A stretch of 55,874 nucleotides of DNA from an uncultured Christensenella sp. (GTDB taxonomy: Bacteria; Bacillota; Clostridia; Christensenellales; DTU072): positions 1-55,874 of the forward strand of contig CAYJBS010000003.1 in the NCBI GenBank assembly GCA_964368435.1, given 5' to 3'. The notes under the pieces are model-generated. The model did no database searches, was not told the origin of the DNA, and saw nothing but the letters and a program-made list of their open reading frames with translations. This document shows, piece by piece, positions 8,936 to 42,053 of this stretch. The first letter of the stretch is position 1; the number at the start of each line of letters is the position of its first letter. The position numbers were made by a program, and so were the translations under genes.

Positions 8936-9007
8936 GTGAAGAGAACAACAAAAACCATAGTTTTGATTGTGCTGACGGTGATTCTGGCACTGACCTTGTT
9001 GGCGTGT
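8936..9007 (+). other. Lipoprotein signal peptide with lipobox L-L-A-C (Cys codon 9005-9007)
   Basis: It has a basic n-region (KR..K), a 17-residue hydrophobic core, and then LLA|C, which fits the [LIVMF..]-[LIVM..]-[AGS]-C lipobox rule. Confidence 0.7.
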
Positions 9008-21000: not shown

Positions 21001-24000
21001 ATACCAAAGATTTTTGGTTATGCACTATGACGGAGACGTCGAAAAGATTGATGTCGACACCATAAAGAAGCATGCGCTGTTGCGTTTAAGGGAACTTCAT
21101 CGCAAAGAAAGTATGGATTATTATAATGGTATTTTGCAATCCGGACTTGCGGCTTATGTCGTAAGCTACAAGGCTTTGGCTTGGCAAAGATATTATGATT
21201 ATAACCTGGAGAATAATGAAGAAAGGGCTGAGGCTATGGACAGCATTCTTCATGGCGCCGTGACAAGCATTATGGATACTCTGCAGGCAGAAGCGCTGGA
21301 TAGGCTCTATCAAGCGCTTGCCGAAGACGCTACTTCGAGAATAACAGCTACGGAAGAAAATCTCATCAGCACCATAAAGCAAAATGAATTGTGGATATCG
21401 CTGTTCGGCGAAGACCTCGACGCGCTTAAAGATATGCTCGGGGACATTTTGCCCATTGACGACAACAATCTTACTTTGAAAGATGAGGCGTGGCAGACAC
21501 TTATGTCACTGCTTAATCAAAGATCGACATATTTCACGTTGCTACTTGTTCAGAAAACGCAAACTCTTGAACAGTATCCGCAGCAAACTCAAGACTACAG
21601 AGATACAAGCAGCTGGGATGCGTTGTATCAGCTGGGAGTGCCGGGACTTGCACAGCTTATGGATGAAGTACTTGCGACATATGGTCTTTTCGGCGACAGC
21701 AACAAACATCTGGCGTTCAGAGATCTTGAAATCATGCTGACTACCGACCATACACATCTCGACCGCATGGAAATGATGCGCGCACTTGTTTTTGGCGAGA
21801 ATACGCAACTGTCGGAGAAAGAAATAAACGCCCAAGCGTTCGATCGAACATGTGCAAATTATGTTGCAATCGCAAGCCGTCTTGAAGAAGCGGTGTTGGA
21901 CATAAAGCATAATGCATGGCAGGTCTTTGTTGCCGAAAATTCCGGCAATGTTTTGCTAATCTCTCTTTTTGAAGAGATGTACGTTCTCGAGCTTTTGTAT
22001 CAAAACAATGACGAAAAGCGCGCGGCAACGGTATGCTGGGACAGATTTGTTAATATGACCGTAAATATCGAAGAAACGCTGGCATCTGCCGATCAGAGGT
22101 ATTCCGAAGACGAGTTGAGAGCCTTCTCTATCGGCTGTATCCTTGATTTGTTGGGCGGCGACGAAAGAGCGGTATTGCAAAATGCGCTTGACGAAATAGT
22201 CATAAATTATACCGCCGATCAACTTTGCGCAATGGTTTATGACATAGTGTACAGCGCAAGCATACCTGTCGAAAAAGCCGCAATGAAACAATTGTATGAT
22301 ATTCAAGCATCGGGAGGCGGTACCGTAGAAGCTATCAAGATGCGTACGCTGAACGCATACAAAGCACAAAAAAGTCAAAACGCCACAAGTGTTATTGATG
22401 ATGCTTATGAGACATTGAGCGACAGCGAAAAAACAGCGCTTTTTGCAGCATTCCACACTCCGACAATCAGTGACCCAATTGAGGTATATACACTTGATCT
22501 TGCCGAGCAATATTGGAATGGAGGCAAGATCGATACTGCATATGGCAGAATCAATATTTTCTGGGATCTTGAGGTGTTGGAAGACGGCGGCGACATAGCC
22601 AAGATCTTTATCGGCAACGCCTACAAAGCCATAGACAATGTCGACAATGAGTTTAATTATCAAACAAATGTTTTTGAAGTAAATAACTTCATATATAAGA
22701 ACAGACAGATTATCATCGAAAAACTCGATTTCTATGGGGAACTGAACATATATTCGGGAGAGGAAGTCATCGATGTAGCAAACTACTACAATCAACTTGT
22801 CATAGACCCCCTCAGCCCATATATCCCGCAAAAGGTAGCGGCATACGGCAGTATCACAGGAGTGACACCCAATGTCGAAATAGACGGCGAGTTATACAGC
22901 TATATCGGCGAAGTCGATGTCAGTTTTGAGAGCAGAATAAACGAGTTCTTGTATGACGACGAGGGCGTTGCCGGAGAAAGCATGACGGCAACGGTTTCCC
23001 CGGGACTTGGCGAGGGATCGCAGAATATTACCATAACGGTGTATTATCTGAACCGTCAACCGATTACGTACTACGTCAACAATCAAGATTATACCGTAGA
23101 AATGCTTGATGAGGATCTCAACCTTTATCCCTTGAGCATGAATATCGGTGACAATAAGGTGTTGACGGTTGATCCGCTAAACGACAATATTTATAATACC
23201 AACACAAACAAATATATTCTGCCGAACTCTTTGGTGGTTATGTTTACCGACGCTTATGCCGACGGTGTCATCTCGACGCTGTTTATGAACGGTGTCTTCA
23301 ACAACAGACTGGACATAAGCGGCATAAACTGGAACCTTATGGGCAAAAGCATTACGCTAGCGGGGATTGCGCCGTCGAATATCAGCATTGACGGTTATAC
23401 CGTAGACAACCAAAATATCGTCTCGACAGCTCAAATGAACAGCGATTTCTGGAAAATACAGCTTGACGTTCTTGAGAAAGAAGTAGACAGAACTTTGGAA
23501 GTCAATCAGCAGGGGCAAGGCGGCATAATTCTGGCGTCACAAAGCGGCGGTCTGTTGACTGCCACCAAAAAGATAGACCCCTACAATGTCATGGTATCTT
23601 TCCCCGACCATGTGAGAGTAGAATTTACCGACGGTTCGGAATCAAAACTTTTGACCAACATCTCATGGCAGTTTGCAGAGGGACGCGGACTTGAATATCT
23701 GCAACTTCCCGAAGTAATTACCGGCGCCATCGGAGAAAGCGCAATGTTCATAACTGCCGGTTTCAAGTGCGTCAGTGAGACTATCTGGATAAACTTCCCC
23801 ATCCAGAAACGTCATATCGACATAAGCGTCGAGGGCTCCGAAGAAATAAGATATCTTGAAGGCGGTACGATTTATTTAATTAAGGGTGTAGACTTGATGA
23901 CTCAGCTGAACAAGTACAGCAGTTTATACTACAACTTTGCCGATTACGGGCAGCCTGAGGACTGGTCGGAAGTGCCGTTAGAATTCTTGCCCAATGATGT

Positions 24001-27000
24001 CAGCCAAATAAGCACTGCCGAAGTAGGGACATACACCATTCGCGGCAGGTTGGGACAAATAAACGATCCCAACATAGTTTTTGAGATTGTTGTGATAGAT
24101 CCCAAGCTATACGCCATAGATATCAACGGACAACTCAACCCGAAAGTCTATTATGACAGCTTGACTGCCGGCGTAAACACCTTCGGCGTTCGTCAAGTAG
24201 GCAAGGAGAATGAGGAGAACTTCCTCCCAAGCAACCTGGTACAACTCAGCGTCACCGATAATGGCGGCAATGTTGTTATAGGATACAATGAGTTCGAAAT
24301 AACAGAAAGCTATTGGGACATTGCAAACAAAAAAGTTATATTCACCTGCGTATATACTTTCCTTGACGAGAGTGACGATGTCGAAAGGCTCGCCGGAGGA
24401 TTGGGCGGTAGTCAGCAACTTTACTTTACAGTTTCGCTGCCGCTGAAGACTTATTTGTATTCGGCAATAGACGACACCATGGTACTGCGAGCCGGCAGCA
24501 ATGACGGCACCAATATCCTGAAGTTGACTCTTGGCGAACCACTAAAAATGTCGGATCTCCCCAACGCAATTATGAACTACGGCAGAGAGAACGCTTTCGA
24601 AGTACCTCTGCTTTGGGATTTGCGCACCATAAATGTCAACAAAGCAGGCACCTACAACCTTTTCGGATATTACAGAGATTATACCTCGTCATATCCCAAG
24701 AGCAAGAACCTTGAGGTAGTCATCGACAAGGTTGACATAAGCAGTGCGGTTTCCACGCTGTATTCCTTGACTCAGACGTATACAGGATTGTATATCGAAG
24801 TGGTGCCGGTACTGCCGGATGTGCTGCGAGAGCAAGGCAATTATGCGCAATTACGGCTGGGCAGAGACATAATAGTCGAATATCTGACCGAAGAAAAATA
24901 CATTCTTGAAGCTTTTGAGGAATTCAGCACGACACCGTACAAAGACGCAGGCGCGTATTTTGTCAGAATAACAGTTGAAGATTACAACACCTTCGGACAA
25001 AAAGTCTTCCGTATGCTCATAAATCCTATTGAGATAGACCCGAAAGACATCATATTTGAATACGGCGAAGGCGCACAAGATTGGGCGGTCGAGATTCCCG
25101 AATGGCCCGAAACAGAAGAAGCAAAGAACAGGCTGTTCTTCAATCAGTTCCGCGCCTACGCCAACCAAAATCTCGGCTCTAATGTTTCCGCAAGAGTGCG
25201 CGCGGCGGCTTTTGAGACCTTGAAGGAGAGTGTCGGTTTGACTGCGCAAAAGCTATTGACCGATCGTTATAACACCATATTAGCAAACAACTTCCCGCAA
25301 TACGACACTTCCGATGTCGCCGAAAAAACCACTATTGAGCTTTTAACGAAAGCTATGGTTTGGGAAGAGATCGCTCCATACGGAGTCAGTGGCGAGCTGC
25401 TAGTGCCCGGTTGGCCGAAGAATTCCGACGAAAAACAAGGGCTTTTTGAAGAGGCGAAACAACAGCTGGAAGAAAACAGCGGCGACAAAGAAGCCATGGC
25501 TCAGGCGTATGACAATCTGTTTGCCCTTGTCATAGCTCTGGCACAGGTGCTCTTACAAAACAGATTCGACGAAATACTTCAAACCCGTTTCCCGAACTAT
25601 CACGAGGCAACGGAATCTATGAAGACATTTATGATGATAGAAGCCAAGTCTATCGTGTGGTCCGAAATCACCCCCACCGGTCTAATTGGACAGCCATTAA
25701 TAGCCAACTGGCCGAGAACTATGAATGAAAAAGAACTGATGCTTGATGATGAGTATGAATACCTGCTTAACCTCTCGCTGGCAGGCAGCGAAAGAGAGCT
25801 GTTCATAAAGCAGGTCAAGGCATTGGCATACAACGAGTTGCTTGCCACGGTATACGCCACGGCGCAAACAAAATTGCAAACAAGCCTTGATACGATTCTG
25901 CAGATTTATTATCCGTTATATAACACATACGGCGACGAACAGAAAGCTCTGATTCTTACCGAGGCAAAAAGCCTTGTTTGGGACCAGGTTGTGCCGGGTG
26001 ACACCGTCACAGAAAAGAGCTATGTATATGACGGACAGGACCACATGCCCGTAGTTACGGGTATGCCGCAAGCAAAAATTATCGGTTGGCCACAAACTCC
26101 CGACGAAAAGGCAGCGCTGCTGGACTTTGCGCGTACCGAAAACTCCAACTTCACAGAAATCGAGGTACGGGCAAGGGCATTTGACAACCTTATGCAGCGG
26201 ATATATTCCAACGTTTTTGCCTTGCAGAAAATAACTGATATCTTGAATTTGGTTATTGAGGAATTCTATCCCGCTTACAATTTGCCTTCGACGCCCTATG
26301 AAGAAAGACAGCAGCTGCTCCTTGAAGCAAAAGCAAAGGCGTGGGACTCCAGAATAATTTATGCCGATACGGTGGAGGAGATTTATTATTCCTTCACATA
26401 CTGGTATGCCGACATGAGCAACAACGGCATGATTACCAACACAAGACCGCGTTCGGCAGGCACATATGAAATTACACTTTTGATAGATCCGCTGCTGAAC
26501 CGCAACTACCGTCTAAAAGCCGATGCTGCCATTATGACGACAATCAGCATAAGAATAGCAAATATAGACAAAAACTTCCTGAATGAGATGGTTTATAGCG
26601 GAACGGCTATTATGCCCGAATGCCCGGGAATGCACGACGAAAACGGCGATCTGCCCGAAGGCGTCAGCATAGAATATACGTATATAAAAGACGGCAGAGC
26701 AGTAGAGTACATAAGAGATGTCGGTCAATATTTCTTCACCGCTGTCGTAAACGGCGGCAACAACTATCCTTCGTGGCAAAGCGAATCACTACTCATAAAC
26801 ATATTGAAGAAGGACTTGATTATTGATGTCGGTTTGGTCGAAAGCGGCTATCTTGAAAAGACGAAAGCCTTCAACAGCAGCGTAACTTTTGACGGTGTAG
26901 TAGGCAATGATTTGCCCTCGATGTTCGGTTATTTGGTTTGCAACAGCCCTGTCACCGACAAACATATGGTAGGTGATTATGATATCACTTTCCAAGGCTT

Positions 27001-28019: not shown

Positions 28020-28049
28020 TTGACACCAAGAAACGCACTATTATATAAT
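28020..28049 (+). promoter_or_regulatory. Sigma-A-type promoter for the metallopeptidase-dockerin operon
   Basis: TTGACA (28020-28025), an 18-nt spacer, then TATAAT (28044-28049); both hexamers match consensus. GGAGG (28063-28067) and ATG (28073) follow closely, implying a short 5' UTR. Confidence 0.6.
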
Positions 28050-28072
28050 ATGATTACAAAAAGGAGGCGAGC

Positions 28073-31000
28073 ATGAAAAAAGCATATAAGATATCTTTAA
28101 TAACTGCATTTGCGGTATTGTTACTTTTGCTTGTATTTTTGTCTTGCCAAGGCTACAACTATCCTCAAACACCGTCCGAAATAGTCGGAAAGAACACTTT
28201 CACACAAACTATGGTGGAGGCAGACGGCAATGAAGCAAATTTCTTTGCCAGCGGCGACGAGAAATTCAACTATCTTCATGACAAAGATGGTTACATTTTG
28301 TTGCGTGACAACGGCTATTTGGTCTATGCCCGAAACGACGAAGGCAGACCGCAACCGACAAAAGTCCGTTATGCCGCAGGCGCCGAAAGAATCAACTCTT
28401 TGCAAAAAATGGTGTACTCCGACATAAACTTCTCTGCCAATCCCGACTTGATTGCCCAGTATCCGCAGAGCGCTTCGGCGCCTTTGCTGTCACAAAGCAG
28501 TCCTTTCGAAGTGCGCCCGATAGTCAATATAGTCATTTATGTATGCTTTGCCGGAGAAAACGTCAGTTTGGACCGTCAGCAAATAGACAGCTTTTTGAGC
28601 GGACCGACAAATTCGCTTACTGATTATTATCAGCGCCTGTCGAACGGCAAAATAATGGTACATAACATAAACCCGTTGAACGGTGAGCAGATATACATCT
28701 ACAAAGATTCACAACCGCGCAGCTATTATCAGCTCAAGAGAGGTTCTGCCAGCAGAGCGGCAAGAGAGAGAACACTTCTCAACAATGCCGTCACAGCCAG
28801 CAGACAGTATTTTCAACTTCAAGGACTTGACATAGATTCCGACGATGACGGCTTCGTAGACGCCGTAAATTTCTTGATTGCAGGATCGCCATACAGTGAG
28901 TGGGGCGGCATGCTTTGGCCCCATTCGTGGGATCTCGACGACATCTCAAGCGGCAATTCAGCGACAATTTCGGGCTTGAAAGTCAAGAAATACTCTTTCA
29001 ATTTCCTCGGACAGCTTACCGTAGGGCTACTGGCTCACGAATTTGCGCATGTGCTGGGCGTACCCGACTTGTATCACTATGACGACGCCCATGTTGCCGT
29101 AGGCAACTGGGATCTTATGCACTTTGAGGCGGATAATCCACAATATATGACAACGCATTTGCGTTATAAATATTTGAAAGCAGTCGAAGAGGAACAGATA
29201 GGGATTATTGATTATAATGGCATCTATTCGCTAAAACCGACAACGCTTACTTCTCGCGGAGAGCTTGCGGCATACCGCATAAATTCCTCAAGACCAAACG
29301 AGTATTTTATGGTAGAATACCGCAACAACAATGTTACGGGTTATGACTCTTCTCTGCCTGGCTCGGGGCTCATCGTATACAGAATAAAACAAAATGTCAC
29401 AGGAAACTCACTTGCCAAAAAGAATGACAAGAACAATCCTGACGAATTATACATATTCCGTCCGAGAGTAGTCACCACGGGTACCGAGGCGAACAATTCT
29501 TTGGCAAACCTCAACAAAGCCTTTTTGTCGCCCAGCAACGCTGTTTTTTCTTCGCTTGGTGCCAGCCTTCAACAAAAACCTGCCTCAAGCTATGACCCCA
29601 CGACGATATACTTTACCGACGGCTTGAACAGCGGCATTGTCATCAATTCGCTTTCCATAAATGACGGCGAAATAGTTTTTGAGGTTCGACTGTCCGGAGG
29701 CAACAGCGTTGACGACGATTATTTTGTCAACAAGATTTCTCTGAAGAACGCAGGTCTGATCAACAACAGCCAATTCAGCGGCGTGTATGCCGATATGACG
29801 GTGGCGGACGGCATGGCTTTGAGCAACATGAACAGCATTGTTGCAGTCCTGAAGACCTCCGACAACAGAAAGACCGCCGAAATAAGGCTTGACAGAGCCA
29901 AGTTCATACTATCCTACGACCAAGAGCTTCGCAATTTTGCGGTGCGATTCATCATAAACGACAAGGGCAACCACAATCTTTCCACGGTATTTTATGACAA
30001 TGACTGGAAGAACTATGACGAACCGTCAAATATCGAACTTTATGTCGTAGACAGCGACAACGATATGATCAAGCTTGCATCATATTCAATAAGTCAACAA
30101 AACGCATCATGGCAATCCATACAGATGACCAATACCGTATTCAAACCATCGGTATCGGCATCTTTAAGAATGACTATAGGTATCCGAAATGACGGAAAAG
30201 CTTTTGCTTCATCAATTGATGACCTTCCGGAAGAAATAGATGATGTCATTGCTGCATCTGCCGGAGCGTATCATATGCTTATTCTCAAGAGCGATTTGAA
30301 GGTTACGCATTTTGGCAGTCTGAATCAGAACGAAAACAATGTAGGTTCCTGGGCAAACATCATAAAAGTAGCGGCAGGAGAGTATACCTCGTACGGACTT
30401 GATTTGATGGGCAGAGTATTTTATGCCGGCTCAGGAGCTGCCGCAGGAGTGGCGGCTTGGACGGACATAATTGATATATCAGCCGGAAACAGACATGTTG
30501 CCGGCGTCAAATCAAACGGCAGAGTAGAGGCTTTGGGAACAGGCACCGATGCGCTTGCCGTGGGAACTTGGGAAAACATAACAGCAGTGGCTTGCGGCAA
30601 CGATTTTACTGTCGGCTTGACAAAGAGCGGCACAGTTATTGTCACCGGCAATTTGGCAAACAAGACGCAAGCGACAAATTTACGCAACATAACAAAGATT
30701 GCCGCCGGCGATCAGCACATGCTGGCACTGGACCAAAAAGGCAGAGTCTTCGCCATTGGACAGGACTTGGAAGGCAACTGTGACGTGTCGGGATACTATG
30801 ACATTATCGATATCGCCGCAGGCAACTACCAATCGGTAATGCTGCGAGAGGACGGCAAGATTTTTTATGCCGGCGTCAACACCAATAGCACCAATGACAT
30901 TTCGCAAAATTTGATATATTTCAACAATGATTACGTAGACGTAACTTCATTGCTCTCACCTTTTGAAGGAAAAATAATGAAGACAGGTGAAAGCTATTTT

Positions 31001-34000
31001 CTCAATGTTGCAGCATTGCCGCAGAATGCCACCTACAAAAAAATAACCTACAAATCCAGCGATACTGCTGTAGCGGAGGTTACAGAGGATGGCGTTGTTA
31101 CGGCAAAGGGTGAGGGAGTCACCGTTATTGACGCTACACACAGAGGCTCTTCTCTGAACGAAAAAATCACCATAACAGTTGTGGCGCCTTATCAATCGGA
31201 ATCTATGATAGCCGCAGGCGACAGCCATAGCGTCATTCTTGGCAACAACGGCACTGTGACGGCGGCGGGCGCCAACAGCAAGGGACAGTTGAATGTCAAT
31301 ATGTGGGGCAACATAAAATTCGTTGCAGCCGGAGGAGACACTACCGTAGGAATTACTCCCGACGGCGGCATTCGGGTAGCAGGAGAATTGCAGGGAATAG
31401 GCGCCGAGGACTGGACGAGTATCAAGTATGTTTCCGTCAGCAAGCGCACCATTGTGGGCATAAACTCAGACGGTGTAGTATTCGCCGTGGGAGACGACAA
31501 TTATCATCAAGTTTCATCGGTTGAAGGCATATCCGGAGCAAAAAAGGTTACCGCAAGCCCGACGCATACCGTAATAACGTATGAATCGAACGTATTTGAG
31601 GCATACGGCAACAACAACAAAGGACAACTGGGCGTAAAGTATTGGAGAAATATTCTTCAAGTAGTGGCGTGTGAAGGCTTTACTCTCGGTCTTTCAGAAG
31701 AGGGCTATTTGCTTTATGCAGGGTACTCTCCGTATATAGAAAATATGTCCGTTGTTTCGCAATGGTATGACATAGTAGCCATTGACGCAAGCGCCGACCA
31801 TATCGTGGCTGTTGACAACAACGGCAAGGTATATGCGGCAGGCAACAATTCTTACGCGCAATCAACGGTAGGCAGTATGACGCAGGTCGGCAGAATTGCC
31901 GCAGGCGGCGAACATACCGTTGGCATAAATTTTGACGGCACTATCTCCGCCGCAGGACGCAACAATGACAGCAGGCTGGTACTGCCGGCGGTCAACGAAC
32001 TGCCGAGAGTAAATCTGGAGTCGGTCAACTTCAGTGACATAACTTTCGGAGTCAGGGTAGGACAAACAAAGAGAAGCAACCTTGTCTTCCGTCCATACAA
32101 CGCAACCGACAGAAAATCCGAGAATATTTCATATTCTTCCAATTTAAGCAACATTGCCACAGTCGACAGTCAGGGCAACGTAACGGGTATTGCCGTGGGC
32201 GAAGCCACCATCACCGCCAGAATCACGAAGAACGGCGGAGGACAAAATACGGTCAGCATGACGGTATATGTTTATGATACCGTGCAATCCATAAATTTTC
32301 TTTCTCCTCCGACAAAAAACATTTACGGCTACAAAGACAAGCTGGATTTGCTTGGAGGCAAAATAAACATTGATCTCGGCGGCAACAAGAGCTTTATCAC
32401 GACATTGACTCCCGAAATGGTAGTAGGTTTTGATACTGCCACTTCCACACTGGGCGACAGAGTAATAACCGTGCGCGAATATAACGCATCAACAACATTC
32501 CCAATAAAAGTCGTCGACACCGTAAAGAATATCAACATAAGCAATATGGCGAACATGAAGACGGTATACGACTATGGCGATGCCATAGACCTTTCCGGCG
32601 GTTGGATCGGCATAACGAGAGGTTACGGAAACGTTCAGATCGAGGAGAGGATGGATAACCTTCTTCTTAACGGCTCACTGGAAGTTTTTGCCGACACAAA
32701 CATTCTTGCGACGACGACGGTGACCTTGAAATATACCGACAAAATAGCCGCAGAATCGGGCATCTCGAATATTTTCTATTTGTCCTATCAGATTACTGTA
32801 TTTGACAAGGTCATAGGATTGACAGCAGAACTTGACAAAACAATCTTCAAATACGGCGAAGAGATTTTTGGCAACGGCAGACTTATTGTCAATATGAAGT
32901 CGGGCATAGATATTTATGAGGACATACAGAGCAAAGAAGAAATTGAGGAAGGTGTCGATTCTGTCATAACTATCGGCAACTACGACAAAAATATGCTTGG
33001 AGCGCAAATAATAAAAATAAATTATTTCAATCCTGATTTTGACATTCCTTTTGCTTATTTCCCGACACTCAATATCGAGGTGCAGGACTCCATTTCCGAA
33101 GTTGAGATCACCTCAATGATGCTTGACGATGCGGCGGTGTATGATAGGACGAAATCTATCGACAGCTCGATTACCGTACGTGTCAGCTTTTCGGGCGGCG
33201 CCATAATCGATGTCGGCTATGACGGCGCGCAGCAAATGTTTGCCAACATCATTCTTGCATTTGGAGAAGTCAGTGTCGGCGATCAGGAAGGTTTCGCAAA
33301 AGTAAGCATGGAAATCAAGGTACTGGAGCGGCTGAACAACAACATACAACACAACCGCAAGTATTATGACAATGATTTGAAAGTGCTTGGGCTGGGCAGC
33401 ATTTCTTCGCTAAAATTTGTTGGCGGCTCCCAATTTGATTATGGACAAAGCACAGACCTTATGTTGGAAATAACCACCGACAACGCGGCATTGTATCGAA
33501 TAAAAATTGATGATGCCAGATTGGGACTGGACAACAAATTGTTGACTCCGCAGACTGTCAGTTTCACATTGTTGGGAGAGACTGCCACAACAACCGTTAC
33601 TTTCAAGGATTATGTGACGGGCATATATACGCAATACTTGAATATAAGCGCCATTTACGGTCAAGCGTTGCAGCTTACCGTCTATAAAACCATGGCAAGC
33701 GGCGCAGAACTGGAGATTACAGACGGTTGGGACTCCAACTATATTGCGACGAAAGAGGGTATGCAGCAGGTCACCATAACTTATTTGAACAGTTATACTT
33801 ATACCATAAATGTTACGGTGTTGAACGCTATTGCTTCCGTCAGCGTAATCAGCTCGCCGCGTACCACTTACCAAATACACGAAGACTTGGATTTGTCCGA
33901 TTTCAGCATTCGTTTGACCTTTCAAAAAGGCGACAACGAAACGGTACCCTATGCTCTCGACAAATTCTCGGTGACTGGTTTTGACAAAAACCTTATCGGC

Positions 34001-34996
34001 ATTCAGATAGTAACCATTACTTTTGATTTGACAGGCGACTATTGGGAATATGCTTTCGAAGTAAGAAACCGCATCAAGCGTATTGAAGTAGACAGAGAAC
34101 TTTCAAAAACGCTTTATACGGTAGGCGAAGATCTGGACATTACTTTGATATGTGTCTACGAAAACGGCGACAGATCAGAGATATTCGACGAGTTCGTCAA
34201 CAACTTTGACAAAAGCTTGATAGGGCAACAACAGGTAGTCAATGTCATATATTGGGGAACCTATAGTACGGCTCTCATCGTCGAAATAATAGACGCCCCA
34301 AGAGAAATAACCATAAAAGCTCCGACAAAGAAGTATTATGAATACGGCGAGCCGCTGGACCTTGACGGGGGTGTGTTGACTATTATCACACAGACCGGAA
34401 AGCGCAAAGCAGAGTCATTGATTGCATACAGAAATTATATCTCCACCTTCAATCCGACTCCGCTTTCAAAGGGTGGGCAACAGCTTACACTGACAATACC
34501 GCAATATGAGGTGTCTGCCGGTTTCATAGTCTACGTAAAAGACAAGGCAACAAGCATTATGCTTCAACCCAAAGAAAATGTCACAGGCATAAAAATAGAC
34601 CGCAACAATACAAGAGTGCTGCTTGACGAAAGCACAACGCTTGCCACCTTCAACAATATGATTTCAAGCTATGCTACCATAAGCTATAAGTCGGGCGACA
34701 GCTATTTGGACTTGAATGCGCACCAAAACGACTTGATTTCTTCGGGAGTAAAGGTAGAAATCAGAAATTCCGAAGGCGCATTGTTGGAGACTTTCAGCAT
34801 CAATGTGAAAGGCGATGCAAACGGCGACGGTTTATTTGACGACAAGGATTTGCCTATGCTGGGACAGACGCTGCTTCTCGGCACAGAAAGCGCGCTATTC
34901 TATGCCGATTATGATTCCGACAGGGAATACACGCTGACCGATTTTGTCAACTGGGTAAAAAGAGCTGAAGAAAATCAAAGGGGTAACGCAGAATGA
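28073..34996 (+). CDS. Giant multidomain lipoprotein (2,307 aa) with M6/InhA-like zinc metallopeptidase, RCC1-like propellers, Big_2 modules, an Ig-like module array and a C-terminal dockerin
   Basis: The ATG lies 5 nt after GGAGG. The signal peptide MKKAYKISLITAFAVLLLLLVFLSC has Cys25 in a lipobox-compatible context. Domain motifs are listed in the sub-features. Two Big_2-like modules lie at ~30965-31185 (TAVAEVTEDGVVTAKGEGVTVIDAT) and ~32040-32280 (IATVDSQGNVTGIAVGEATITARI). Confidence 0.92.
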   Translation: MKKAYKISLITAFAVLLLLLVFLSCQGYNYPQTPSEIVGKNTFTQTMVEADGNEANFFASGDEKFNYLHDKDGYILLRDNGYLVYARNDEGRPQPTKVRYAAGAERINSLQKMVYSDINFSANPDLIAQYPQSASAPLLSQSSPFEVRPIVNIVIYVCFAGENVSLDRQQIDSFLSGPTNSLTDYYQRLSNGKIMVHNINPLNGEQIYIYKDSQPRSYYQLKRGSASRAARERTLLNNAVTASRQYFQLQGLDIDSDDDGFVDAVNFLIAGSPYSEWGGMLWPHSWDLDDISSGNSATISGLKVKKYSFNFLGQLTVGLLAHEFAHVLGVPDLYHYDDAHVAVGNWDLMHFEADNPQYMTTHLRYKYLKAVEEEQIGIIDYNGIYSLKPTTLTSRGELAAYRINSSRPNEYFMVEYRNNNVTGYDSSLPGSGLIVYRIKQNVTGNSLAKKNDKNNPDELYIFRPRVVTTGTEANNSLANLNKAFLSPSNAVFSSLGASLQQKPASSYDPTTIYFTDGLNSGIVINSLSINDGEIVFEVRLSGGNSVDDDYFVNKISLKNAGLINNSQFSGVYADMTVADGMALSNMNSIVAVLKTSDNRKTAEIRLDRAKFILSYDQELRNFAVRFIINDKGNHNLSTVFYDNDWKNYDEPSNIELYVVDSDNDMIKLASYSISQQNASWQSIQMTNTVFKPSVSASLRMTIGIRNDGKAFASSIDDLPEEIDDVIAASAGAYHMLILKSDLKVTHFGSLNQNENNVGSWANIIKVAAGEYTSYGLDLMGRVFYAGSGAAAGVAAWTDIIDISAGNRHVAGVKSNGRVEALGTGTDALAVGTWENITAVACGNDFTVGLTKSGTVIVTGNLANKTQATNLRNITKIAAGDQHMLALDQKGRVFAIGQDLEGNCDVSGYYDIIDIAAGNYQSVMLREDGKIFYAGVNTNSTNDISQNLIYFNNDYVDVTSLLSPFEGKIMKTGESYFLNVAALPQNATYKKITYKSSDTAVAEVTEDGVVTAKGEGVTVIDATHRGSSLNEKITITVVAPYQSESMIAAGDSHSVILGNNGTVTAAGANSKGQLNVNMWGNIKFVAAGGDTTVGITPDGGIRVAGELQGIGAEDWTSIKYVSVSKRTIVGINSDGVVFAVGDDNYHQVSSVEGISGAKKVTASPTHTVITYESNVFEAYGNNNKGQLGVKYWRNILQVVACEGFTLGLSEEGYLLYAGYSPYIENMSVVSQWYDIVAIDASADHIVAVDNNGKVYAAGNNSYAQSTVGSMTQVGRIAAGGEHTVGINFDGTISAAGRNNDSRLVLPAVNELPRVNLESVNFSDITFGVRVGQTKRSNLVFRPYNATDRKSENISYSSNLSNIATVDSQGNVTGIAVGEATITARITKNGGGQNTVSMTVYVYDTVQSINFLSPPTKNIYGYKDKLDLLGGKINIDLGGNKSFITTLTPEMVVGFDTATSTLGDRVITVREYNASTTFPIKVVDTVKNINISNMANMKTVYDYGDAIDLSGGWIGITRGYGNVQIEERMDNLLLNGSLEVFADTNILATTTVTLKYTDKIAAESGISNIFYLSYQITVFDKVIGLTAELDKTIFKYGEEIFGNGRLIVNMKSGIDIYEDIQSKEEIEEGVDSVITIGNYDKNMLGAQIIKINYFNPDFDIPFAYFPTLNIEVQDSISEVEITSMMLDDAAVYDRTKSIDSSITVRVSFSGGAIIDVGYDGAQQMFANIILAFGEVSVGDQEGFAKVSMEIKVLERLNNNIQHNRKYYDNDLKVLGLGSISSLKFVGGSQFDYGQSTDLMLEITTDNAALYRIKIDDARLGLDNKLLTPQTVSFTLLGETATTTVTFKDYVTGIYTQYLNISAIYGQALQLTVYKTMASGAELEITDGWDSNYIATKEGMQQVTITYLNSYTYTINVTVLNAIASVSVISSPRTTYQIHEDLDLSDFSIRLTFQKGDNETVPYALDKFSVTGFDKNLIGIQIVTITFDLTGDYWEYAFEVRNRIKRIEVDRELSKTLYTVGEDLDITLICVYENGDRSEIFDEFVNNFDKSLIGQQQVVNVIYWGTYSTALIVEIIDAPREITIKAPTKKYYEYGEPLDLDGGVLTIITQTGKRKAESLIAYRNYISTFNPTPLSKGGQQLTLTIPQYEVSAGFIVYVKDKATSIMLQPKENVTGIKIDRNNTRVLLDESTTLATFNNMISSYATISYKSGDSYLDLNAHQNDLISSGVKVEIRNSEGALLETFSINVKGDANGDGLFDDKDLPMLGQTLLLGTESALFYADYDSDREYTLTDFVNWVKRAEENQRGNAE
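28260..29520 (+). other. M6 (immune inhibitor A-like) metallopeptidase catalytic region; HEXXH at 29036-29050
   Basis: LLAHEFAHVLGVPDLYHYDD matches the M6 signature HEF-x-H-x-LG-[LV]-PD-x-Y. Upstream, FNYLHDKDGYILLRDNGYLVYA resembles the N-terminal part of the M6 domain. Confidence 0.8.
30240..30890 (+). repeat. RCC1-like beta-propeller block 1 (six blades visible)
   Basis: The blades are SAGAYHMLILKSDLKV, AAGEYTSYGLDLMGRVFYAG, SAGNRHVAGVKSNGRVEALG, ACGNDFTVGLTKSGTVIVTG, AAGDQHMLALDQKGRVFAIG and AAGNYQSVMLREDGKIFYAG. Confidence 0.75.
31200..31990 (+). repeat. RCC1-like beta-propeller block 2 (seven blades)
   Basis: The blades are AAGDSHSVILGNNGTVTAAGANSKGQL, AAGGDTTVGITPDGGIRVAG, KRTIVGINSDGVVFAVGDDNYHQ, THTVITYESNVFEAYGNNNKGQLG, CEGFTLGLSEEGYLLYAG, SADHIVAVDNNGKVYAAGNNSYAQ and AAGGEHTVGINFDGTISAAGRNNDSRL. 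Confidence 0.8.
32281..34545 (+). repeat. Array of about nine ~75-90-aa Ig-like modules (Big_3-like pattern Y.YG..LDL.GG.i)
   Basis: The pattern recurs as IYGYKDKLDLLGGKINI, VYDYGDAIDLSGGWIGI, IFKYGEEIFGNGRLIV, QFDYGQSTDLMLEI, TYQIHEDLDLSDFSIRL, LYTVGEDLDITLICV and YYEYGEPLDLDGGVLTI. Each is followed by ...G.q.v.i.y... and a v.V ending. Confidence 0.65.
34811..34960 (+). other. Dockerin module (two EF-hand-like Ca2+ loops)
   Basis: In GDANGDGLFDDKDLPMLGQTLL ... YADYDSDREYTLTDFVNWVK, both 12-residue loops (DANGDGLFDDKD and DYDSDREYTLTD) carry D/N at positions 1, 3, 5 and 12. This matches type I dockerin duplicated segments. Confidence 0.8.
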
Positions 34997-35724
34997 AAAA
35001 AGTCGCACTAATAATACTATTGATTATACTTGCAATGGTTGCGCTTTCGGGCTGCAAAAACAAGGAAATAAGAGCCGACGAAATAAAATTTATCGAAATT
35101 CGCGACGGTTCTTTCAAGACCACTTACGCCATTGACGAACAAATAGATTTTCGTAATGTATACATAGTCATCACCCTGAAGGACAACAAGGGCGAAGTCG
35201 TAGAGCATGTGACGCCCGAAATGCTCGAGGGTTTCGACACCTTCACAACGACTGCATCTATGGAAATGCGCACCATGCGTGTAAAATACAAAGGGATGTA
35301 CACCTCGAACTGGAACTATACCGTGGCAAGCCCCTATGCCATAAACACAAAGGCGAGACTGAGACTTTCGAGCGAAAAGGTTGACAACAAATACAAACTA
35401 AGCCTCAGTGTCGAATTGGACGAGATTCCCCAAATAAACGCGCTCCAAATGCAGGTGAGCTTCAATGACACAAGGCTTGTCTACAACAACGAGACCGAGG
35501 GAGGCTTGACGGGTTGGCAGAGCAATAAGGTATCGACAAAGAGTGGAGCCTTCGATATGCTCTATTACGCCGCGCCGGGTACTCAGCCGCTGAAAGAAGA
35601 CAGCAAGTTGACTACACTGGTCTTTGATATTTTGTCGGACGGTGACTTCAATTTGCAAATAACAAATATACATGTCAGCTTCGGTGAAGGCGATATTTAT
35701 CTTCCCGATGCCACGCTGAAATAA
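34993..35724 (+). CDS. Small lipoprotein with one Ig-like module and a cohesin-like C-terminal domain
   Basis: The ATG at 34993 overlaps the TGA of the upstream gene (ATGA), and AAAGGGG lies 9 nt upstream. The signal peptide MKKVALIILLIILAMVALSGC has a canonical LSGC lipobox. The module VTPEMLEGFDTFTTTASMEMRTMRVKY is paralogous to LTPEMVVGFDTATSTLGDRVITVREY in the upstream gene. Confidence 0.9.
   Translation: MKKVALIILLIILAMVALSGCKNKEIRADEIKFIEIRDGSFKTTYAIDEQIDFRNVYIVITLKDNKGEVVEHVTPEMLEGFDTFTTTASMEMRTMRVKYKGMYTSNWNYTVASPYAINTKARLRLSSEKVDNKYKLSLSVELDEIPQINALQMQVSFNDTRLVYNNETEGGLTGWQSNKVSTKSGAFDMLYYAAPGTQPLKEDSKLTTLVFDILSDGDFNLQITNIHVSFGEGDIYLPDATLK
35335..35721 (+). other. Cohesin-like domain
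   Basis: INALQMQVSFNDTRLVYNNETEGGL ... GAFDMLYYAAPGTQPLKEDSKLTTLVFDILSDGDFNLQITNIHVS follows the cohesin pattern (a.D/Q f.v.yD...l....v..G ... g.i.f.y......i..dg.la.i.F.v..). This is pattern recognition only. Confidence 0.55.
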
Positions 35725-35732
35725 GGAGCAAT

Positions 35733-37193
35733 ATGAAAATAATTCCCTATCCGCAAGAAATTGCAGAGAAACCAGGCTTTCTCAAAAAACCTTATGATGT
35801 CAAAGAGATTATCGATGCGAAAATGCAAAATGCAGAAGGCTACAAACTGGATATCGAAAGCGTCGGCATAGTCATCTCGGCAGCAACGGCTCAAGGCATA
35901 TTCTATGGCAGACAGACGCTTGCTCTTCTCGAAGAGGAATACGGCGATGCTCTTCCTTTTGTCAGTATAACGGACTTTCCGAAATATTCGTACAGAGGTT
36001 ATATGCTCGATTGCTCCAGACATTTCTTCCCCATAACACTGATAAAAAAGCAAATAGACATCATGGCGGTGCTGAAACTCAACAAGTTTCATTGGCACCT
36101 GACAGACGATCAAGGGTGGAGAATACAAATTGACAAATATCCGCTGTTGACGGACATCGGCTCAAAAAGAGCGCAAACCTCAGGCGACGGCAAAGAAGTC
36201 GAGGGTTTTTATTCGAAAGAAGAAATCCGAGAAATAGTCGCTTATTGCGCCGAGAGGTTTATTGATGTTGTGCCCGAAATAGATATGCCGGGACATTTCA
36301 AGGCGGCGTTGGCGGCTTATCCGCAATATTCCTGCCGAGAAGAAGCCATGAAAGTAAGCGAGGGCTTCGGCATTTCGCCCGATATTCTTTGCGCCGGAAA
36401 GGAAGAGGCGTACGAATTTTGTTTCAATATCCTCGATGAGGTAGCCGAGCTTTTTCCGTACAAATATATTCATTTGGGCGGTGATGAGGCGCTCAAGCTG
36501 TATTGGCTGCAATGTCCCGATTGCCAAAGGAAGATGAAGGAAAACGGCTTGAGAGACGAAGAGCAGTTGCAGGGTTATTTTATGTCGAAAATGACAGAAC
36601 ACCTAAACAAAAAGGGAAAGACGGTCATAAACTGGAACGACGGCATGTTGGGCGGCAACCTTTCGGGAGACATGGCAGTGCAATACTGGAAGGAAACCAA
36701 GGCATGCAAAGAGGTAGCAAAAAAAGAAGGCGCAGAAGGTCGTCAAATCATCCTCAGCCCGTTTTTTAGTTTTTATCTCGACTATCCCCACGGTATGACA
36801 TCTTTGAAAAATACATATAATTATAAAATCGATGCAGAGATTGCTCCAAGCGTCATCGGCATGGAAGCGCCACTCTGGACGGAGCACGTTACGGACGAAC
36901 AAACAGTATGGCAAATGACATACCCACGCTTGGTCGCGCTGGCAGAGATAAGTTGGAGCGGCAAGCGAGATTATCAAAGTTTCTTGACAAGACTGGATAT
37001 TTTTTATAATATCTTAGATAGGCGAAAAATTTCTTACAGCAAAAATCCCGATCCGTTTTTTATTCCTGGCAAGCTGTCAATGTTGAAATTTTTAATAAAC
37101 GCCTTCAGAAAGGTCGAAAAGAGCAACACCGCCGCCATGAATAAAACAAAAAAACTCTTAAGACAAAAATATAAGAAAGACAAGGAGCTTTGA
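35733..37193 (+). CDS. GH20 beta-N-acetylhexosaminidase (no signal peptide)
   Basis: AAGGAG lies 4 nt upstream. The GH20 hallmarks are present: YRGYMLDCSRHF, FHWHLTDDQGWRIQI, IDMPGH and the catalytic HLGGDE. Confidence 0.93.
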   Translation: MKIIPYPQEIAEKPGFLKKPYDVKEIIDAKMQNAEGYKLDIESVGIVISAATAQGIFYGRQTLALLEEEYGDALPFVSITDFPKYSYRGYMLDCSRHFFPITLIKKQIDIMAVLKLNKFHWHLTDDQGWRIQIDKYPLLTDIGSKRAQTSGDGKEVEGFYSKEEIREIVAYCAERFIDVVPEIDMPGHFKAALAAYPQYSCREEAMKVSEGFGISPDILCAGKEEAYEFCFNILDEVAELFPYKYIHLGGDEALKLYWLQCPDCQRKMKENGLRDEEQLQGYFMSKMTEHLNKKGKTVINWNDGMLGGNLSGDMAVQYWKETKACKEVAKKEGAEGRQIILSPFFSFYLDYPHGMTSLKNTYNYKIDAEIAPSVIGMEAPLWTEHVTDEQTVWQMTYPRLVALAEISWSGKRDYQSFLTRLDIFYNILDRRKISYSKNPDPFFIPGKLSMLKFLINAFRKVEKSNTAAMNKTKKLLRQKYKKDKEL

Positions 37194-41516: not shown

Positions 41517-42053
41517 ATGGAAAAAAGAGCAAAGGGTTTTATAGTATTTGTTATTATAGTTTGTCTTGCTTGCATGGCAACGGCTTTCTATATAAGCAGG
41601 TACAAACTCGTAGTTTTTCCTATCGAAGGTTCCTCGATGGAACCCAATGTCCATGACGGGGATAGGGTGCTGGTATACCGCACAAAAAAAATCAAACATG
41701 GTGATGTTATTGTATTTAATTCGGTGTCATTCAATAAACGCCTAATAAAAAGAGTCATCGGTCTTGAGGGCGACACAATAGAAATAAGACATAATGACAC
41801 CCAAAATATCTACCAAATTTACCGCAACGGAGTAAGACTCGAAGAGGATTATATAAACGAGCCAATCACCAGAACTTATTACGAAATGTCTATTGTCGTG
41901 CCTAAAAACCAGATATTTTTTCTCGGCGACAACCGCAATGTGTCGCAGGACAGCCATATGGGTGAAGTTACCGAGGACATATCGCTGATTGAAGGCAAGG
42001 TCATCATGCGTTATAAGGGGATAAATGTGAACTTCCTTGAGATAAGCGCATAA
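41517..42053 (+). CDS. lepB: Signal peptidase I
   Basis: AGGAG lies 5 nt upstream and there is an N-terminal TM anchor. The SPase I boxes are present: GSSMEP (Ser), GDRVLV, IKRVIGLEGD (Lys) and GDNRNVSQDSH. Confidence 0.93.
   Translation: MEKRAKGFIVFVIIVCLACMATAFYISRYKLVVFPIEGSSMEPNVHDGDRVLVYRTKKIKHGDVIVFNSVSFNKRLIKRVIGLEGDTIEIRHNDTQNIYQIYRNGVRLEEDYINEPITRTYYEMSIVVPKNQIFFLGDNRNVSQDSHMGEVTEDISLIEGKVIMRYKGINVNFLEISA

What the first reader, a model, noticed from the sequence alone, without database searches (positions are those of the whole stretch)
28073..34996. Unusual fusion of lipobox, M6/InhA-type metallopeptidase, two RCC1 propellers, Big_2, ~9 Ig-like modules and a dockerin
Seen in sequence: the protein has an FLSC lipobox and HEFAHVLGVPDLY (29036-29074), which matches the M6 signature. 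It has six plus seven RCC1-like blades, two Big_2 modules, an Ig-like array and a C-terminal dockerin.

Established knowledge: M6 peptidases (Bacillus InhA, Vibrio PrtV) are secreted virulence or host-protein-degrading enzymes. Dockerins normally target proteins to cohesin scaffolds.

Inference: the protein would be held at both ends, by an N-terminal lipid and by a C-terminal dockerin bound to a cohesin. That means either a membrane-parallel loop in cis or a bridge to another cell or protein in trans. I do not know of a characterised protease combining an M6 domain with double RCC1 propellers and a dockerin.
Basis: partly seen in the sequence, partly recalled or inferred. Interest (0 to 1): 0.7.

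Follow-up and report, generated by a model that had tools for sequence, protein, structure and literature searches.

The report
Cohesin-tethered giant surface metalloprotease
This is a real 2,307-residue secreted zinc protease from an uncultured gut or digester Clostridia lineage.

Summary
The ORF at 28073-34996 (+) is real and nearly every listed module checks out.

- **M6 catalytic domain:** it is InhA-type, with HEFAHVLGVPDLY at exactly 29036-29074. The His/Glu/His/Asp/Met residues are invariant.
- **Propellers and Ig modules:** there are two seven-bladed RCC1-like propellers (7+7, not 6+7), two Big_2 modules and about nine Big_3-like modules.
- **Dockerin:** a C-terminal dockerin is present.

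The "FLSC lipobox" is the weak point. The Cys is absent from the 78%-identical ortholog and from most of the family, so anchoring at both ends is poorly supported.

It encodes a 243-aa lipoprotein with an invariant lipobox Cys, a Big_3-like spacer and a cohesin. The cohesin's closest solved relatives are the non-cellulosomal cohesins of Clostridium perfringens.

In 35 of 35 related loci with enough downstream DNA, the dockerin-bearing protease is followed at once by this cohesin lipoprotein. Each locus has one dockerin and one cohesin.

Best reading: the protease is exported and held on its own cell by its C-terminus through a dedicated 1:1 dockerin-cohesin pair. The Ig array acts as a stalk.

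The architecture is not unique. More than 50 protein clusters and about 40 species-level Christensenellales MAGs carry it, and none is characterised. I rate it a new variant of known kinds, of moderate interest.

The parts
28020..28067 (+). Promoter-like site (TTGACA-18-TATAAT, 12 of 12) and AAAGGAGG ribosome-binding site ahead of the protease gene
   Evidence: This is a consensus match only; function was not shown.
28073..34996 (+). Gene for the 2307-aa M6-RCC1-Ig-dockerin protein
28073..28153 (+). N-terminal export signal (aa 1-27: MKKAYK, a 17-residue hydrophobic core, then SCQG). It contains the non-conserved FLSC string (Cys25).
   Evidence: The Cys is present only in P0001 and P0002. A small residue (G/S) at aligned position 27 is common. 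The cleavage type could not be predicted with these tools.
28196..29530 (+). M6 (InhA-type, thuringilysin) metallopeptidase region, aa ~42-486. It comprises an N-terminal beta domain, the catalytic domain and the downstream beta subdomain.
   Evidence: TIGR03296 covers aa 169-437. phmmer against distant M6 proteins covers aa 42-486. The profile hits InhA2. AlphaFold plus Foldseek also point to InhA2.
29036..29074 (+). Zinc-binding and catalytic motif HEFAHVLGVPDLY (H322, E323, H326, G329, D332). The putative Met-turn Met349 follows at 29117-29119.
   Evidence: one search gives the coordinates. The residues are invariant in 24- and 33-sequence alignments. They align to HAFGHDLGLPDEY...WSLM of InhA2.
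29531..30151 (+). Unassigned beta-rich linker domains between protease and propeller (aa ~487-693)
   Evidence: No Pfam hit. The region is conserved in the family alignment.
30152..30904 (+). RCC1-like seven-bladed propeller 1 (aa 694-944)
30935..31177 (+). Big_2 module 1 (aa ~955-1035)
   Evidence: best stretch aa 968-1023
31208..31969 (+). RCC1-like seven-bladed propeller 2 (aa 1046-1299), present only in the P0001-P0009 subclade
   Evidence: It is collinear with propeller 1 plus Big_2 at 28% identity, E 2e-22.
32015..32269 (+). Big_2 module 2 (aa ~1315-1399)
   Evidence: two Big_2 stretches
32270..34546 (+). Array of Big_3-like Ig modules (aa 1400-2158). Eight are detected and one is probable in the gap at aa 1663-1775.
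34547..34801 (+). Small beta module preceding the dockerin (aa ~2159-2243), unassigned
   Evidence: Sequence and family alignment. There is no Pfam hit above noise.
34802..34993 (+). Dockerin (aa 2244-2307) with two Ca-binding repeats, GDANGDGLFDDKD and ADYDSDREYTLTD
34993..35724 (+). Gene for the 243-aa cohesin lipoprotein. Its start overlaps the protease stop (ATGA).
34993..35055 (+). Lipoprotein signal peptide with a canonical lipobox, L-S-G-C (Cys21)
   Evidence: Cys21 is invariant in 28 orthologs. A lipobox-like [AGS]C lies in the first 40 residues of 56 of 56 homologs of ~240 aa.
35074..35337 (+). Big_3-like spacer domain of the lipoprotein (aa ~28-115)
   Evidence: 16 of 28 orthologs hit Pfam Big_3. 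The profile hits 4fd0, 4fdw and 2l7y.
35344..35721 (+). Cohesin domain of the lipoprotein (aa ~118-243)
   Evidence: Pfam Cohesin scores 25.2 bits against a gathering score of 24.1. The profile hits C. perfringens NagJ cohesins 2jh2, 2ozn, 2o4e and 2w1n at E 5e-5 to 1e-4. The AlphaFold model (pLDDT 85) has 2jh2 as top Foldseek hit, E 1e-7, TM 0.75.
41517..42053 (+). Signal peptidase I gene in the same tightly packed gene string. It is a possible processing enzyme, and the association is by synteny only.

Best explanation
The gene encodes a giant cell-surface zinc metalloprotease that is attached to its own cell by its C-terminus.

**Proposed steps**
1. The protein is exported through the Sec pathway by its N-terminal signal (inferred).
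2. Outside the cell, the dockerin folds with calcium and binds the single cohesin of the 243-aa lipoprotein made from the overlapping downstream gene. That lipoprotein is fixed in the outer leaflet of the membrane by its lipidated Cys21 (inferred from gene pairing and domain identity; binding was not tested).
3. The eleven or so Ig-like modules (2 Big_2 and about 9 Big_3-like) form an extended stalk that carries the two RCC1-like propellers and the M6 catalytic domain outward through and beyond the cell wall (inferred).
4. The propellers serve as ligand or substrate-recognition modules (inferred; the ligand is unknown).
5. The M6 domain is catalytically competent, because all zinc ligands, the catalytic Glu and the Met-turn Met are invariant (shown at sequence and fold level; activity was not tested).

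**Fate of the N-terminal signal**
- The signal is most likely removed by signal peptidase I, so the mature protein is tethered at one end only.
- In this species a lipidated Cys25 cannot be excluded.
For: **Protease identity and competence**
- TIGR03296 scores above its cutoff.
- H322, E323, H326, G329, D332, Y334, W346 and M349 are invariant across the family and across distant M6 proteins.
- The profile matches InhA2 and aligns both the zinc motif and WxLM.
- Foldseek's top hit is InhA2, E 2.5e-14.
- Asp as third zinc ligand is the thuringilysin/snapalysin pattern (PMC12237041).

**Dockerin**
- Two conserved Ca-binding repeats are present.
- The profile hits solved dockerins.

**Cohesin partner**
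- Pfam Cohesin scores above its gathering score.
- The profile hits NagJ cohesins, including the one solved in complex with a dockerin, 2ozn.
- Foldseek's top hits are cohesins.

**Lipoprotein anchor**
- The lipobox Cys is invariant in 28 orthologs.
- It is present in 56 of 56 homologs of ~240 aa.

**Pairing**
- The two genes overlap by ATGA.
- 35 of 35 related loci with at least 750 nt downstream have the cohesin ORF directly after the dockerin ORF.
- Each locus has exactly one dockerin and one cohesin, and so does the 55.9-kb window.
- The pairing persists in variants with 0, 1 or 2 propellers: L041 and L042 at 985 aa, and L043 at 1513 aa.

**No alternative wall anchor**
- There is no LPXTG motif and no SLH or LysM hit.

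**N-terminal processing**
- A signal peptidase I gene is conserved in the same gene string.
Against: - No binding, localisation or activity data exist. All relatives are metagenome-assembled genomes.
- This copy of the dockerin is just under the Pfam gathering score (21.2 against 22.9), and Pfam Peptidase_M6 is also just under (21.4 against 22).
- Whole genomes were not scanned, so other cohesins or dockerins elsewhere could be the true partners.
- The N-terminal signals lack an obvious AXA site and have long hydrophobic cores. They could be uncleaved anchors, and no signal-peptide predictor was available.
- Neighbouring genes in the string (GH20 and the 548-aa protein) lack export signals. 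Conserved order may therefore partly reflect general synteny rather than one functional unit.
Confidence: 0.6

Rival explanations
1. One reading: the protein is held at both ends. An N-terminal lipid on Cys25 (or an uncleaved N-terminal membrane helix) anchors one end and the C-terminal dockerin-cohesin link anchors the other. The result is a membrane-anchored loop.
For: - FLSC fits a permissive lipobox rule: a small residue at -1 and hydrophobic residues at -2 to -4 (sequence).
- The family's N-terminal hydrophobic cores are long (17-20 residues) and lack a clear AXA site, so an uncleaved anchor is conceivable.
- The cohesin partner is itself membrane-anchored, so both ends would sit on the same membrane.
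Against: - Cys25 is present only in this protein and its 85% relative. The 78% ortholog has Phe and the others have A/S/L/M.
- F at -3 and L at -2 are non-canonical. In contrast, the neighbour has the textbook LSGC lipobox with an invariant Cys.
- Lipidation at residue 25 would pin the catalytic domain, which starts at about aa 36-42, to the membrane beneath the wall. That makes the long stalk pointless.
- A signal peptidase I gene is conserved in the gene string.
Confidence: 0.13
2. The dockerin does not bind the neighbouring cohesin. The protease is released, or it is recruited to a different cohesin-bearing protein elsewhere in the genome or on other cells. The adjacent cohesin lipoprotein would then serve another dockerin protein.
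For: - Whole genomes were not searched.
- Non-cellulosomal cohesins and dockerins are often dispersed in genomes (general knowledge).
- The dockerin of this copy is below the Pfam gathering score.
Against: - Adjacency holds in 35 of 35 loci across proteins only 33-40% identical, with overlapping or near-overlapping reading frames.
- Each ~26-kb locus has just one dockerin and one cohesin.
- Adjacency survives gain and loss of the propellers.
- A lipoprotein cohesin lies beneath the cell wall, so binding to another cell is sterically unlikely.
Confidence: 0.12
3. The tethering is as in the best explanation, but the role is different. The protease acts mainly on the cell's own surface proteins, for example by maturing or shedding the giant lipoproteins encoded just upstream, rather than on external or host substrates. 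Alternatively, the molecule is chiefly an adhesin.
For: - The gene lies directly downstream of two giant ORFs of at least 2967 and about 6330 aa. The second has a canonical LLAC lipobox.
- This arrangement is conserved in the closest relatives.
- B. anthracis InhA is described as a modulator of that organism's own secretome (title of Arolas et al. 2016, as cited in PMC12237041).
Against: - The protease gene has its own strong promoter-like site.
- The giant upstream ORF was not detectably conserved in most of the more distant loci.
- No substrate information exists either way.
- A stalk of about 11 Ig modules plus propellers suggests reach away from the cell.
Confidence: 0.15

Closest known systems
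Immune inhibitor A (InhA1/InhA2) of Bacillus thuringiensis, cereus and anthracis; MEROPS family M6, the thuringilysins
   Same: - The catalytic domain has the HExxHxxGxxD zinc motif with Asp as third ligand, followed by a conserved WxLM.
- It is the best sequence-profile and fold match in the PDB.
   Different: - InhA is about 750-800 aa, and its solved chains do not match anything beyond the protease region.
- InhA has no RCC1 propellers, no Big_2 or Big_3 array and no dockerin.
- Foldseek reports about 12% identity over the aligned region.
Non-cellulosomal cohesin-dockerin pairs of Clostridium perfringens glycoside hydrolases (NagJ/GH84C cohesin with NagH dockerin; GH33 cohesin)
   Same: - These are the closest solved relatives of the neighbour's cohesin by profile (2jh2, 2ozn, 2o4e, 2w1n) and by fold (2jh2, 2vo8, 2w1n; TM ~0.75).
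- In both cases cohesin and dockerin assemble non-cellulolytic secreted enzymes.
   Different: - In C. perfringens both modules sit inside large secreted enzymes and link enzymes to each other.
- Here the cohesin is in a dedicated small lipoprotein, the pair is encoded by overlapping adjacent genes, and the cargo is a protease.
Single-cohesin cell-surface anchors of cellulosome producers (for example C. thermocellum OlpA/OlpC and Ruminococcus flavefaciens ScaE)
   Same: - The logic is the same: one cohesin fixed to the cell surface holds one dockerin-bearing protein.
- Cohesins of OlpA and OlpC appear among the fold matches (3ul4, 4dh2).
   Different: - From my own knowledge, not tested here: those anchors are attached through SLH domains or sortase, and they belong to multi-component polysaccharide-degrading systems.
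- Here the anchor is a lipobox lipid, and there is no scaffoldin, carbohydrate-binding module or dockerin-bearing glycoside hydrolase in the window.
Multi-domain M6 family proteins of Bacteroidota, Ignavibacteriota and Cloacimonadota ('M6 family metalloprotease domain-containing protein')
   Same: They share homology over aa ~42-486 at 31-36% identity, including the N-terminal beta domain.
   Different: - Those proteins carry other C-terminal modules, such as PF18962-type sorting domains, FN3 and CARDB.
- They lack RCC1 and a dockerin, and no cohesin neighbour was found in their loci.

Membership tests
MEROPS M6 / thuringilysin (InhA-type metzincin) | Zinc motif HExxHxxGxxD with Asp as the third ligand | tested here: met
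   HEFAHVLGVPD is at aa 322-332. H322, E323, H326, G329 and D332 are invariant in 24- and 33-sequence alignments. The motif is aligned to that of InhA2. The motif definition comes from PMC12237041.
MEROPS M6 / thuringilysin (InhA-type metzincin) | Conserved Met downstream of the motif (Met-turn) | tested here: inconclusive
   WDLM (M349) is invariant and aligns with WSLM of InhA2. I did not inspect model coordinates to confirm that it underlies the zinc site.
MEROPS M6 / thuringilysin (InhA-type metzincin) | Significant match to curated M6 family models | tested here: met
   TIGR03296 scores 128.1 bits against a cutoff of 110.8. Pfam PF05547 scores 21.4 against 22, marginally below, for this copy. 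PF05547 is recorded for many orthologs.
MEROPS M6 / thuringilysin (InhA-type metzincin) | Fold of the catalytic domain like InhA | tested here: met
   The AlphaFold model has pLDDT 85.4. Foldseek's top four hits are InhA2 chains, E 2.5e-14 to 1.7e-13, probability 1.00, TM 0.55.
MEROPS M6 / thuringilysin (InhA-type metzincin) | Metal-dependent endopeptidase activity | not testable with these tools
   This needs an enzyme assay with and without EDTA or phenanthroline, plus an E323A control.
Dockerin (type I-like) | Two tandem ~22-residue calcium-binding repeats (DxNxDGxxxxxD followed by a helix) | tested here: met
   The repeats GDANGDGLFDDKD...L and ADYDSDREYTLTD...W are both conserved across 25 family members.
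Dockerin (type I-like) | Score above the Pfam Dockerin_1 gathering threshold | tested here: inconclusive
   This copy scores 21.2 bits against a gathering score of 22.9, E 3.4e-4. At least 18 orthologous clusters have precomputed PF00404 hits. The family profile hits solved dockerins at E 4e-10 to 1e-6, but it also hits EF-hand proteins.
Dockerin (type I-like) | Calcium-dependent binding to a cohesin | not testable with these tools
   Only gene pairing was shown.
Cohesin (downstream 243-aa protein) | Cohesin domain by curated model, profile and fold | tested here: met
   Pfam PF00963 scores 25.2 against 24.1. Six of 28 orthologs pass on their own. The profile hits C. perfringens cohesins at E 5e-5. 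Foldseek's top 11 hits are cohesins.
Bacterial lipoprotein (the 2307-aa protease) | Lipobox with conserved Cys at +1 after the signal hydrophobic core | tested here: not met
   The F-L-S-C string is non-canonical at -3 and -2. The Cys is present in only 2 of 33 aligned family members at that column.
Bacterial lipoprotein (the 243-aa cohesin protein) | Lipobox with conserved Cys at +1 | tested here: met
   The lipobox is L-S-G-C. Cys21 is invariant in 28 orthologs. [AGS]C occurs in the first 40 residues of 56 of 56 homologs of ~240 aa.
RCC1-like beta-propeller | Seven tandem RCC1-type blades | tested here: met
   RCC1_2 scores 160 bits and WD40_RLD 140 bits. There are 7+7 blades by family HMM.
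Cellulosome | Multi-cohesin scaffoldin plus several dockerin-bearing carbohydrate-active enzymes | tested here: not met
   The window and each related locus contain one cohesin and one dockerin. The only glycoside hydrolase nearby (GH20) has neither a dockerin nor a signal peptide. Whole genomes were not scanned.

The most novel reading that the evidence does not exclude
A self-contained surface-anchoring cassette that is conserved across an uncultured Christensenellales clade and independent of sortase and SLH domains. In it, a dedicated lipoprotein cohesin and a dockerin, encoded by translationally coupled genes, form a 1:1 non-covalent tether for a giant protease. The co-located PMCA-type calcium-export ATPase and signal peptidase I might supply calcium for dockerin folding and process the export signal. 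This would be a new way for Gram-positive-type cells to hold very large enzymes at the membrane while projecting them through the wall.
Probability: 0.3. Interest if true: 0.6.

Novelty: new variant of a known kind. Interest (0 to 1): 0.42.

Why it matters
- **A defined test system.** Functionally understood cohesin-dockerin pairs outside cellulosomes are few. A 1:1 pair conserved across this clade and encoded by overlapping genes, with a lipid-anchored cohesin and a protease cargo, would be a clean system for studying non-cellulosomal cohesin-dockerin anchoring. It could also provide a compact orthogonal tether for surface display.
- **Biology of an uncultured clade.** These Christensenellales relatives are frequent in gut and digester metagenomes. 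The finding points to a large surface protease with two propellers of unknown ligand as a conserved feature of their cell surface.
- **Limits.** This is not a new enzyme class, and every module belongs to a known family.

Tried and rejected
- **Single-sequence PDB searches.** phmmer of the N-terminal 610 aa and of the 243-aa protein against PDB sequences gave only noise. Profiles were needed.
- **Structure prediction of the cohesin protein.** I repeated the job with 11 admissible sequences.
- **Protein-collection searches for the small protein.** The word-indexed search found only 6 relatives with the single sequence and 11 with the profile. The exhaustive representative search was needed to see the family. 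It returned 2015 hits at E up to 1e-3, most of them matching only the Big_3-like part, and about 56 full-length lipoprotein-sized matches among the top 150.
- **Literature.** Six full-text searches found no paper on an M6-RCC1-dockerin protein or on a lipoprotein-anchored cohesin. The InhA structure paper (PMC4706643) is not held.
- **Cellulosome reading.** Rejected. There is no scaffoldin and no dockerin-bearing carbohydrate-active enzyme nearby.
- **Mobile or foreign origin.** Rejected. GC content is uniform at 0.44-0.48 and the surrounding genes are housekeeping (spoIIE, tilS, hpt-like, CCA/poly(A) polymerase).
- **L040/P0230 reading frame.** The stop-free frame joining protease and cohesin looks like a gene fusion. 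I did not count it as evidence, because the cohesin part keeps its own signal peptide and lipobox and only one instance exists.
Full report
**What is in the sequence**

Window 28073-34996 (+) is one uninterrupted 2307-codon ORF. A perfect sigma-70-type consensus (TTGACA, 18 nt, TATAAT; 28020-28049) and an AAAGGAGG ribosome-binding site precede it. GC content is uniform across the window.

The surrounding genes are ordinary chromosomal genes of a spore-forming Firmicute: spoIIE, tilS, a phosphoribosyltransferase, a CCA/poly(A) polymerase-type enzyme and a glycyl-radical enzyme.

**Check of the listed modules**

- *Zinc motif.* HEFAHVLGVPDLY lies at aa 322-334, nt 29036-29074, exactly as reported.
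- *M6 domain.* NCBIfam's M6 domain model TIGR03296 matches aa 169-437 at 128 bits against a cutoff of 110.8. Pfam Peptidase_M6 is just below its threshold, 21.4 against 22.
- *Conserved residues.* I aligned the N-terminal 530 residues with 23 relatives, including M6 proteins of about 32% identity from other phyla. H322, E323, H326, G329, P331, D332, L333, Y334, W346 and M349 are invariant. The same holds in a 33-member full-length family alignment.
- *PDB profile search.* The profile finds Bacillus anthracis InhA2 (4yu5) at E 1e-7. It aligns the zinc motif with HAFGHDLGLPDEY and WDLM with WSLM. The next hits are snapalysins.
- *Fold.* An AlphaFold model (pLDDT 85, pTM 0.83) has InhA2 as its top four Foldseek hits, E about 1e-14.
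- *Third ligand.* Asp as the third zinc ligand is what the literature describes for thuringilysins and snapalysins (PMC12237041).

The zincin/M6 assignment therefore stands, and the catalytic apparatus is intact.

- *Propellers.* RCC1_2 scores 160 bits. A family-trained blade HMM gives seven blades at aa 694-944 and seven at 1046-1299. The count is 7+7 rather than 6+7, because the first blade of propeller 1 is diverged.
- *Duplication.* The unit [propeller + Big_2] at 694-1040 is collinear with 1046-1400 (28% identity, E 2e-22). This is consistent with an old tandem duplication.
- *Ig modules.* Pfam finds two Big_2 stretches. A family HMM finds eight Big_3-like modules between aa 1400 and 2158. 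A 113-residue gap probably holds a ninth.
- *Dockerin.* The last 64 residues carry two canonical dockerin calcium loops. This copy scores 21.2 bits against the Pfam gathering score of 22.9. Many orthologs carry precomputed PF00404 hits. A 25-member profile hits solved dockerins at E 4e-10 to 1e-6.

**The lipobox does not hold up**

The string FLSC is present, but F at -3 and L at -2 are atypical. The Cys is found only in this protein and its 85% relative. The 78%-identical ortholog has LLSF, and the next relatives have FFAM, FVAS, FFSL, FFAL, FVSV and FLAV.

What is conserved is a generic export signal: a K/R-rich start and 17-20 hydrophobic residues, usually ending in small residues. I had no signal-peptide predictor. 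I therefore cannot decide between cleavage by signal peptidase I and an uncleaved anchor. A conserved lipid anchor is ruled out.

The next ORF (34993-35724) starts at an ATG that overlaps the protease stop codon, ATGA. It encodes 243 residues.

- *Lipoprotein signal.* It has a textbook lipoprotein signal, LSGC. Cys21 is invariant in 28 orthologs. A lipobox-like [AGS]C occurs in the first 40 residues of all 56 homologs of ~240 aa among the best 150 hits of an exhaustive search of 1.84 billion representatives.
- *Spacer.* After the signal comes a Big_3-like domain. Sixteen of 28 orthologs hit Pfam Big_3.
- *Cohesin, by sequence.* Pfam scores 25.2 against 24.1. The ortholog profile hits the Clostridium perfringens NagJ cohesin entries 2jh2, 2ozn, 2o4e and 2w1n at E 5e-5 to 1e-4.
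- *Cohesin, by fold.* An AlphaFold model (pLDDT 85) has C. perfringens cohesins as best Foldseek hits (E 1e-7, TM about 0.75, rmsd 2.6-2.7 A). Cellulosomal cohesins crystallised with their dockerins follow.
- *Source annotation.* One database source already names a 67% relative 'cohesin domain-containing protein'.

**Conservation of the pair**

Homology search found 52 clusters (at 90% identity) of 1.9-2.36 kaa with the same module set. Almost all come from metagenomes and none has a functional name. One cluster member is labelled Christensenellales.

A scan of one genome per GTDB species returned about 40 full-length matches. All are MAGs labelled Christensenellales, Christensenellaceae, Clostridia or 'Candidatus Stercoripulliclostridium'. 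They come from sheep, goat and chicken gut, termite gut and anaerobic digesters. The best has 79% identity.

- *Adjacency.* In every one of 35 loci that carry the dockerin-ending protease and at least 750 nt of downstream DNA, the next ORF is this cohesin lipoprotein. Its reading frame usually overlaps or abuts the protease frame.
- *One of each.* HMMs for the dockerin and the cohesin found exactly one of each per locus, and one of each in the whole 55.9-kb window.
- *Robust to propeller number.* The pairing persists at 33-40% protein identity and in shorter variants: L041 and L042 at 985 aa, and L043 at 1513 aa. Most members have one propeller, and P0053-P0055 have none. The double propeller is restricted to the subclade P0001-P0009.

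The conserved core is therefore M6 domain, Ig stalk and dockerin, plus the neighbouring cohesin lipoprotein. The RCC1 content varies.

**Wider context**

Downstream, the gene order is widely conserved:

1. GH20 hexosaminidase
2. PMCA-type calcium P-type ATPase (present in about two thirds of loci)
3. an unassigned 548-aa protein
4. signal peptidase I
5. spoIIE

In the window these genes are separated by 0-8 nt or overlap. GH20 and the 548-aa protein lack export signals. I therefore treat most of this order as synteny rather than as one functional system.

The signal peptidase I gene is compatible with signal-peptidase processing of the protease. The calcium exporter is at most a speculative link to the calcium-dependent dockerin.

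**Most likely mechanism**

The protein is exported. The dockerin binds the cohesin of the co-translated lipoprotein, which is fixed to the membrane by its lipid. The roughly 11 Ig-like modules form a stalk that carries the propellers and the protease away from the membrane.

- *Shown.* Domain identities, intact catalytic residues, the conserved lipobox of the partner, and strict gene pairing.
- *Inferred.* Binding, localisation, signal cleavage, the stalk function, the propeller function and the substrates.
- *Alternative anchors.* No LPXTG motif and no SLH or LysM hit offers another way to attach.

I put this model at about 0.6. Its rivals are these:

- the two-ended tether, about 0.13;
- a different cohesin partner or release from the cell, about 0.12;
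- the same tether but a role in processing the cell's own giant surface proteins, about 0.15.

**Comparison with known systems**

- *InhA.* The catalytic domain is a member of M6. The whole protein is not like InhA.
- *C. perfringens enzyme complexes.* The tether works like cohesin-dockerin assembly in these complexes, and these are the nearest solved cohesins.
- *Single-cohesin anchors of cellulosome producers.* The logic is similar.
- *Not a cellulosome.* There is one cohesin and one dockerin, with no scaffoldin and no dockerin-bearing glycoside hydrolase nearby.
- *Lipoprotein-anchored cohesin.* I found no description of one in the searchable literature.

**Verdict**

The 'double anchor' interpretation is weak. 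The real point of interest is the dedicated dockerin / lipoprotein-cohesin gene pair, conserved across an uncultured clade. It is a new variant built from known parts and is of moderate interest.

Noticed in passing
window 3-8906 (+) and 8798-27934 (+): Two giant ORFs lie directly upstream. One is at least 2967 aa and runs off the window start. The other is 6378 aa as listed, with a likely true start at GTG 8936 after GGAGG, giving about 6330 aa. The second has a canonical lipoprotein signal (...LALTLLAC|APK). Neither matches any Pfam family at E up to 0.01 apart from two faint sub-threshold hits. With the protease they make about 35 kb of contiguous giant surface-protein genes. The largest contigs carrying relatives, of about 1.7-2.4 Mb, suggest small genomes.
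   Followed up: partly
window 37190-39859 (+): A PMCA-type calcium-translocating P-type ATPase (TIGR01517, 544 bits against a cutoff of 507) sits in the same tightly packed gene string as the calcium-dependent dockerin protein. It is present in about two thirds of related loci. A functional link is speculative.
   Followed up: partly
window 41517-42053 (+): A signal peptidase I gene (TIGR02227, 114 bits) is conserved a few genes downstream of the protease in the window and in 29 of the related loci examined. It may be a dedicated processing peptidase for the giant exported proteins, or simply syntenic.
   Followed up: partly
window 39862-41508 (+): A conserved 548-aa protein has no Pfam or NCBIfam match and no export signal. 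It is present in 29 of the related loci examined, between the ATPase or GH20 gene and the signal peptidase gene.
   Followed up: no
L040 463-7563 (+); protein P0230: In one MAG contig the protease and the cohesin lipoprotein lie in a single stop-free reading frame (2343-2367 aa). The cohesin part keeps its own signal peptide and lipobox. This is either a genuine fusion or a one-base assembly error.
   Followed up: partly
family members P0010-P0047 (C-termini), e.g. L001 and L010-L038: In the single-propeller branch the dockerin is followed by a conserved tail of about 30-35 residues (consensus ...P(L/V)N..A..F(I/V)...KEE) that this window's protein lacks. Its function is unknown.
   Followed up: no
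window 35733-37193 (+): The GH20 beta-N-acetylhexosaminidase (363 bits) has no signal peptide. It sits immediately after the cohesin gene with an 8-nt gap and is conserved there in most related loci.
   Followed up: no
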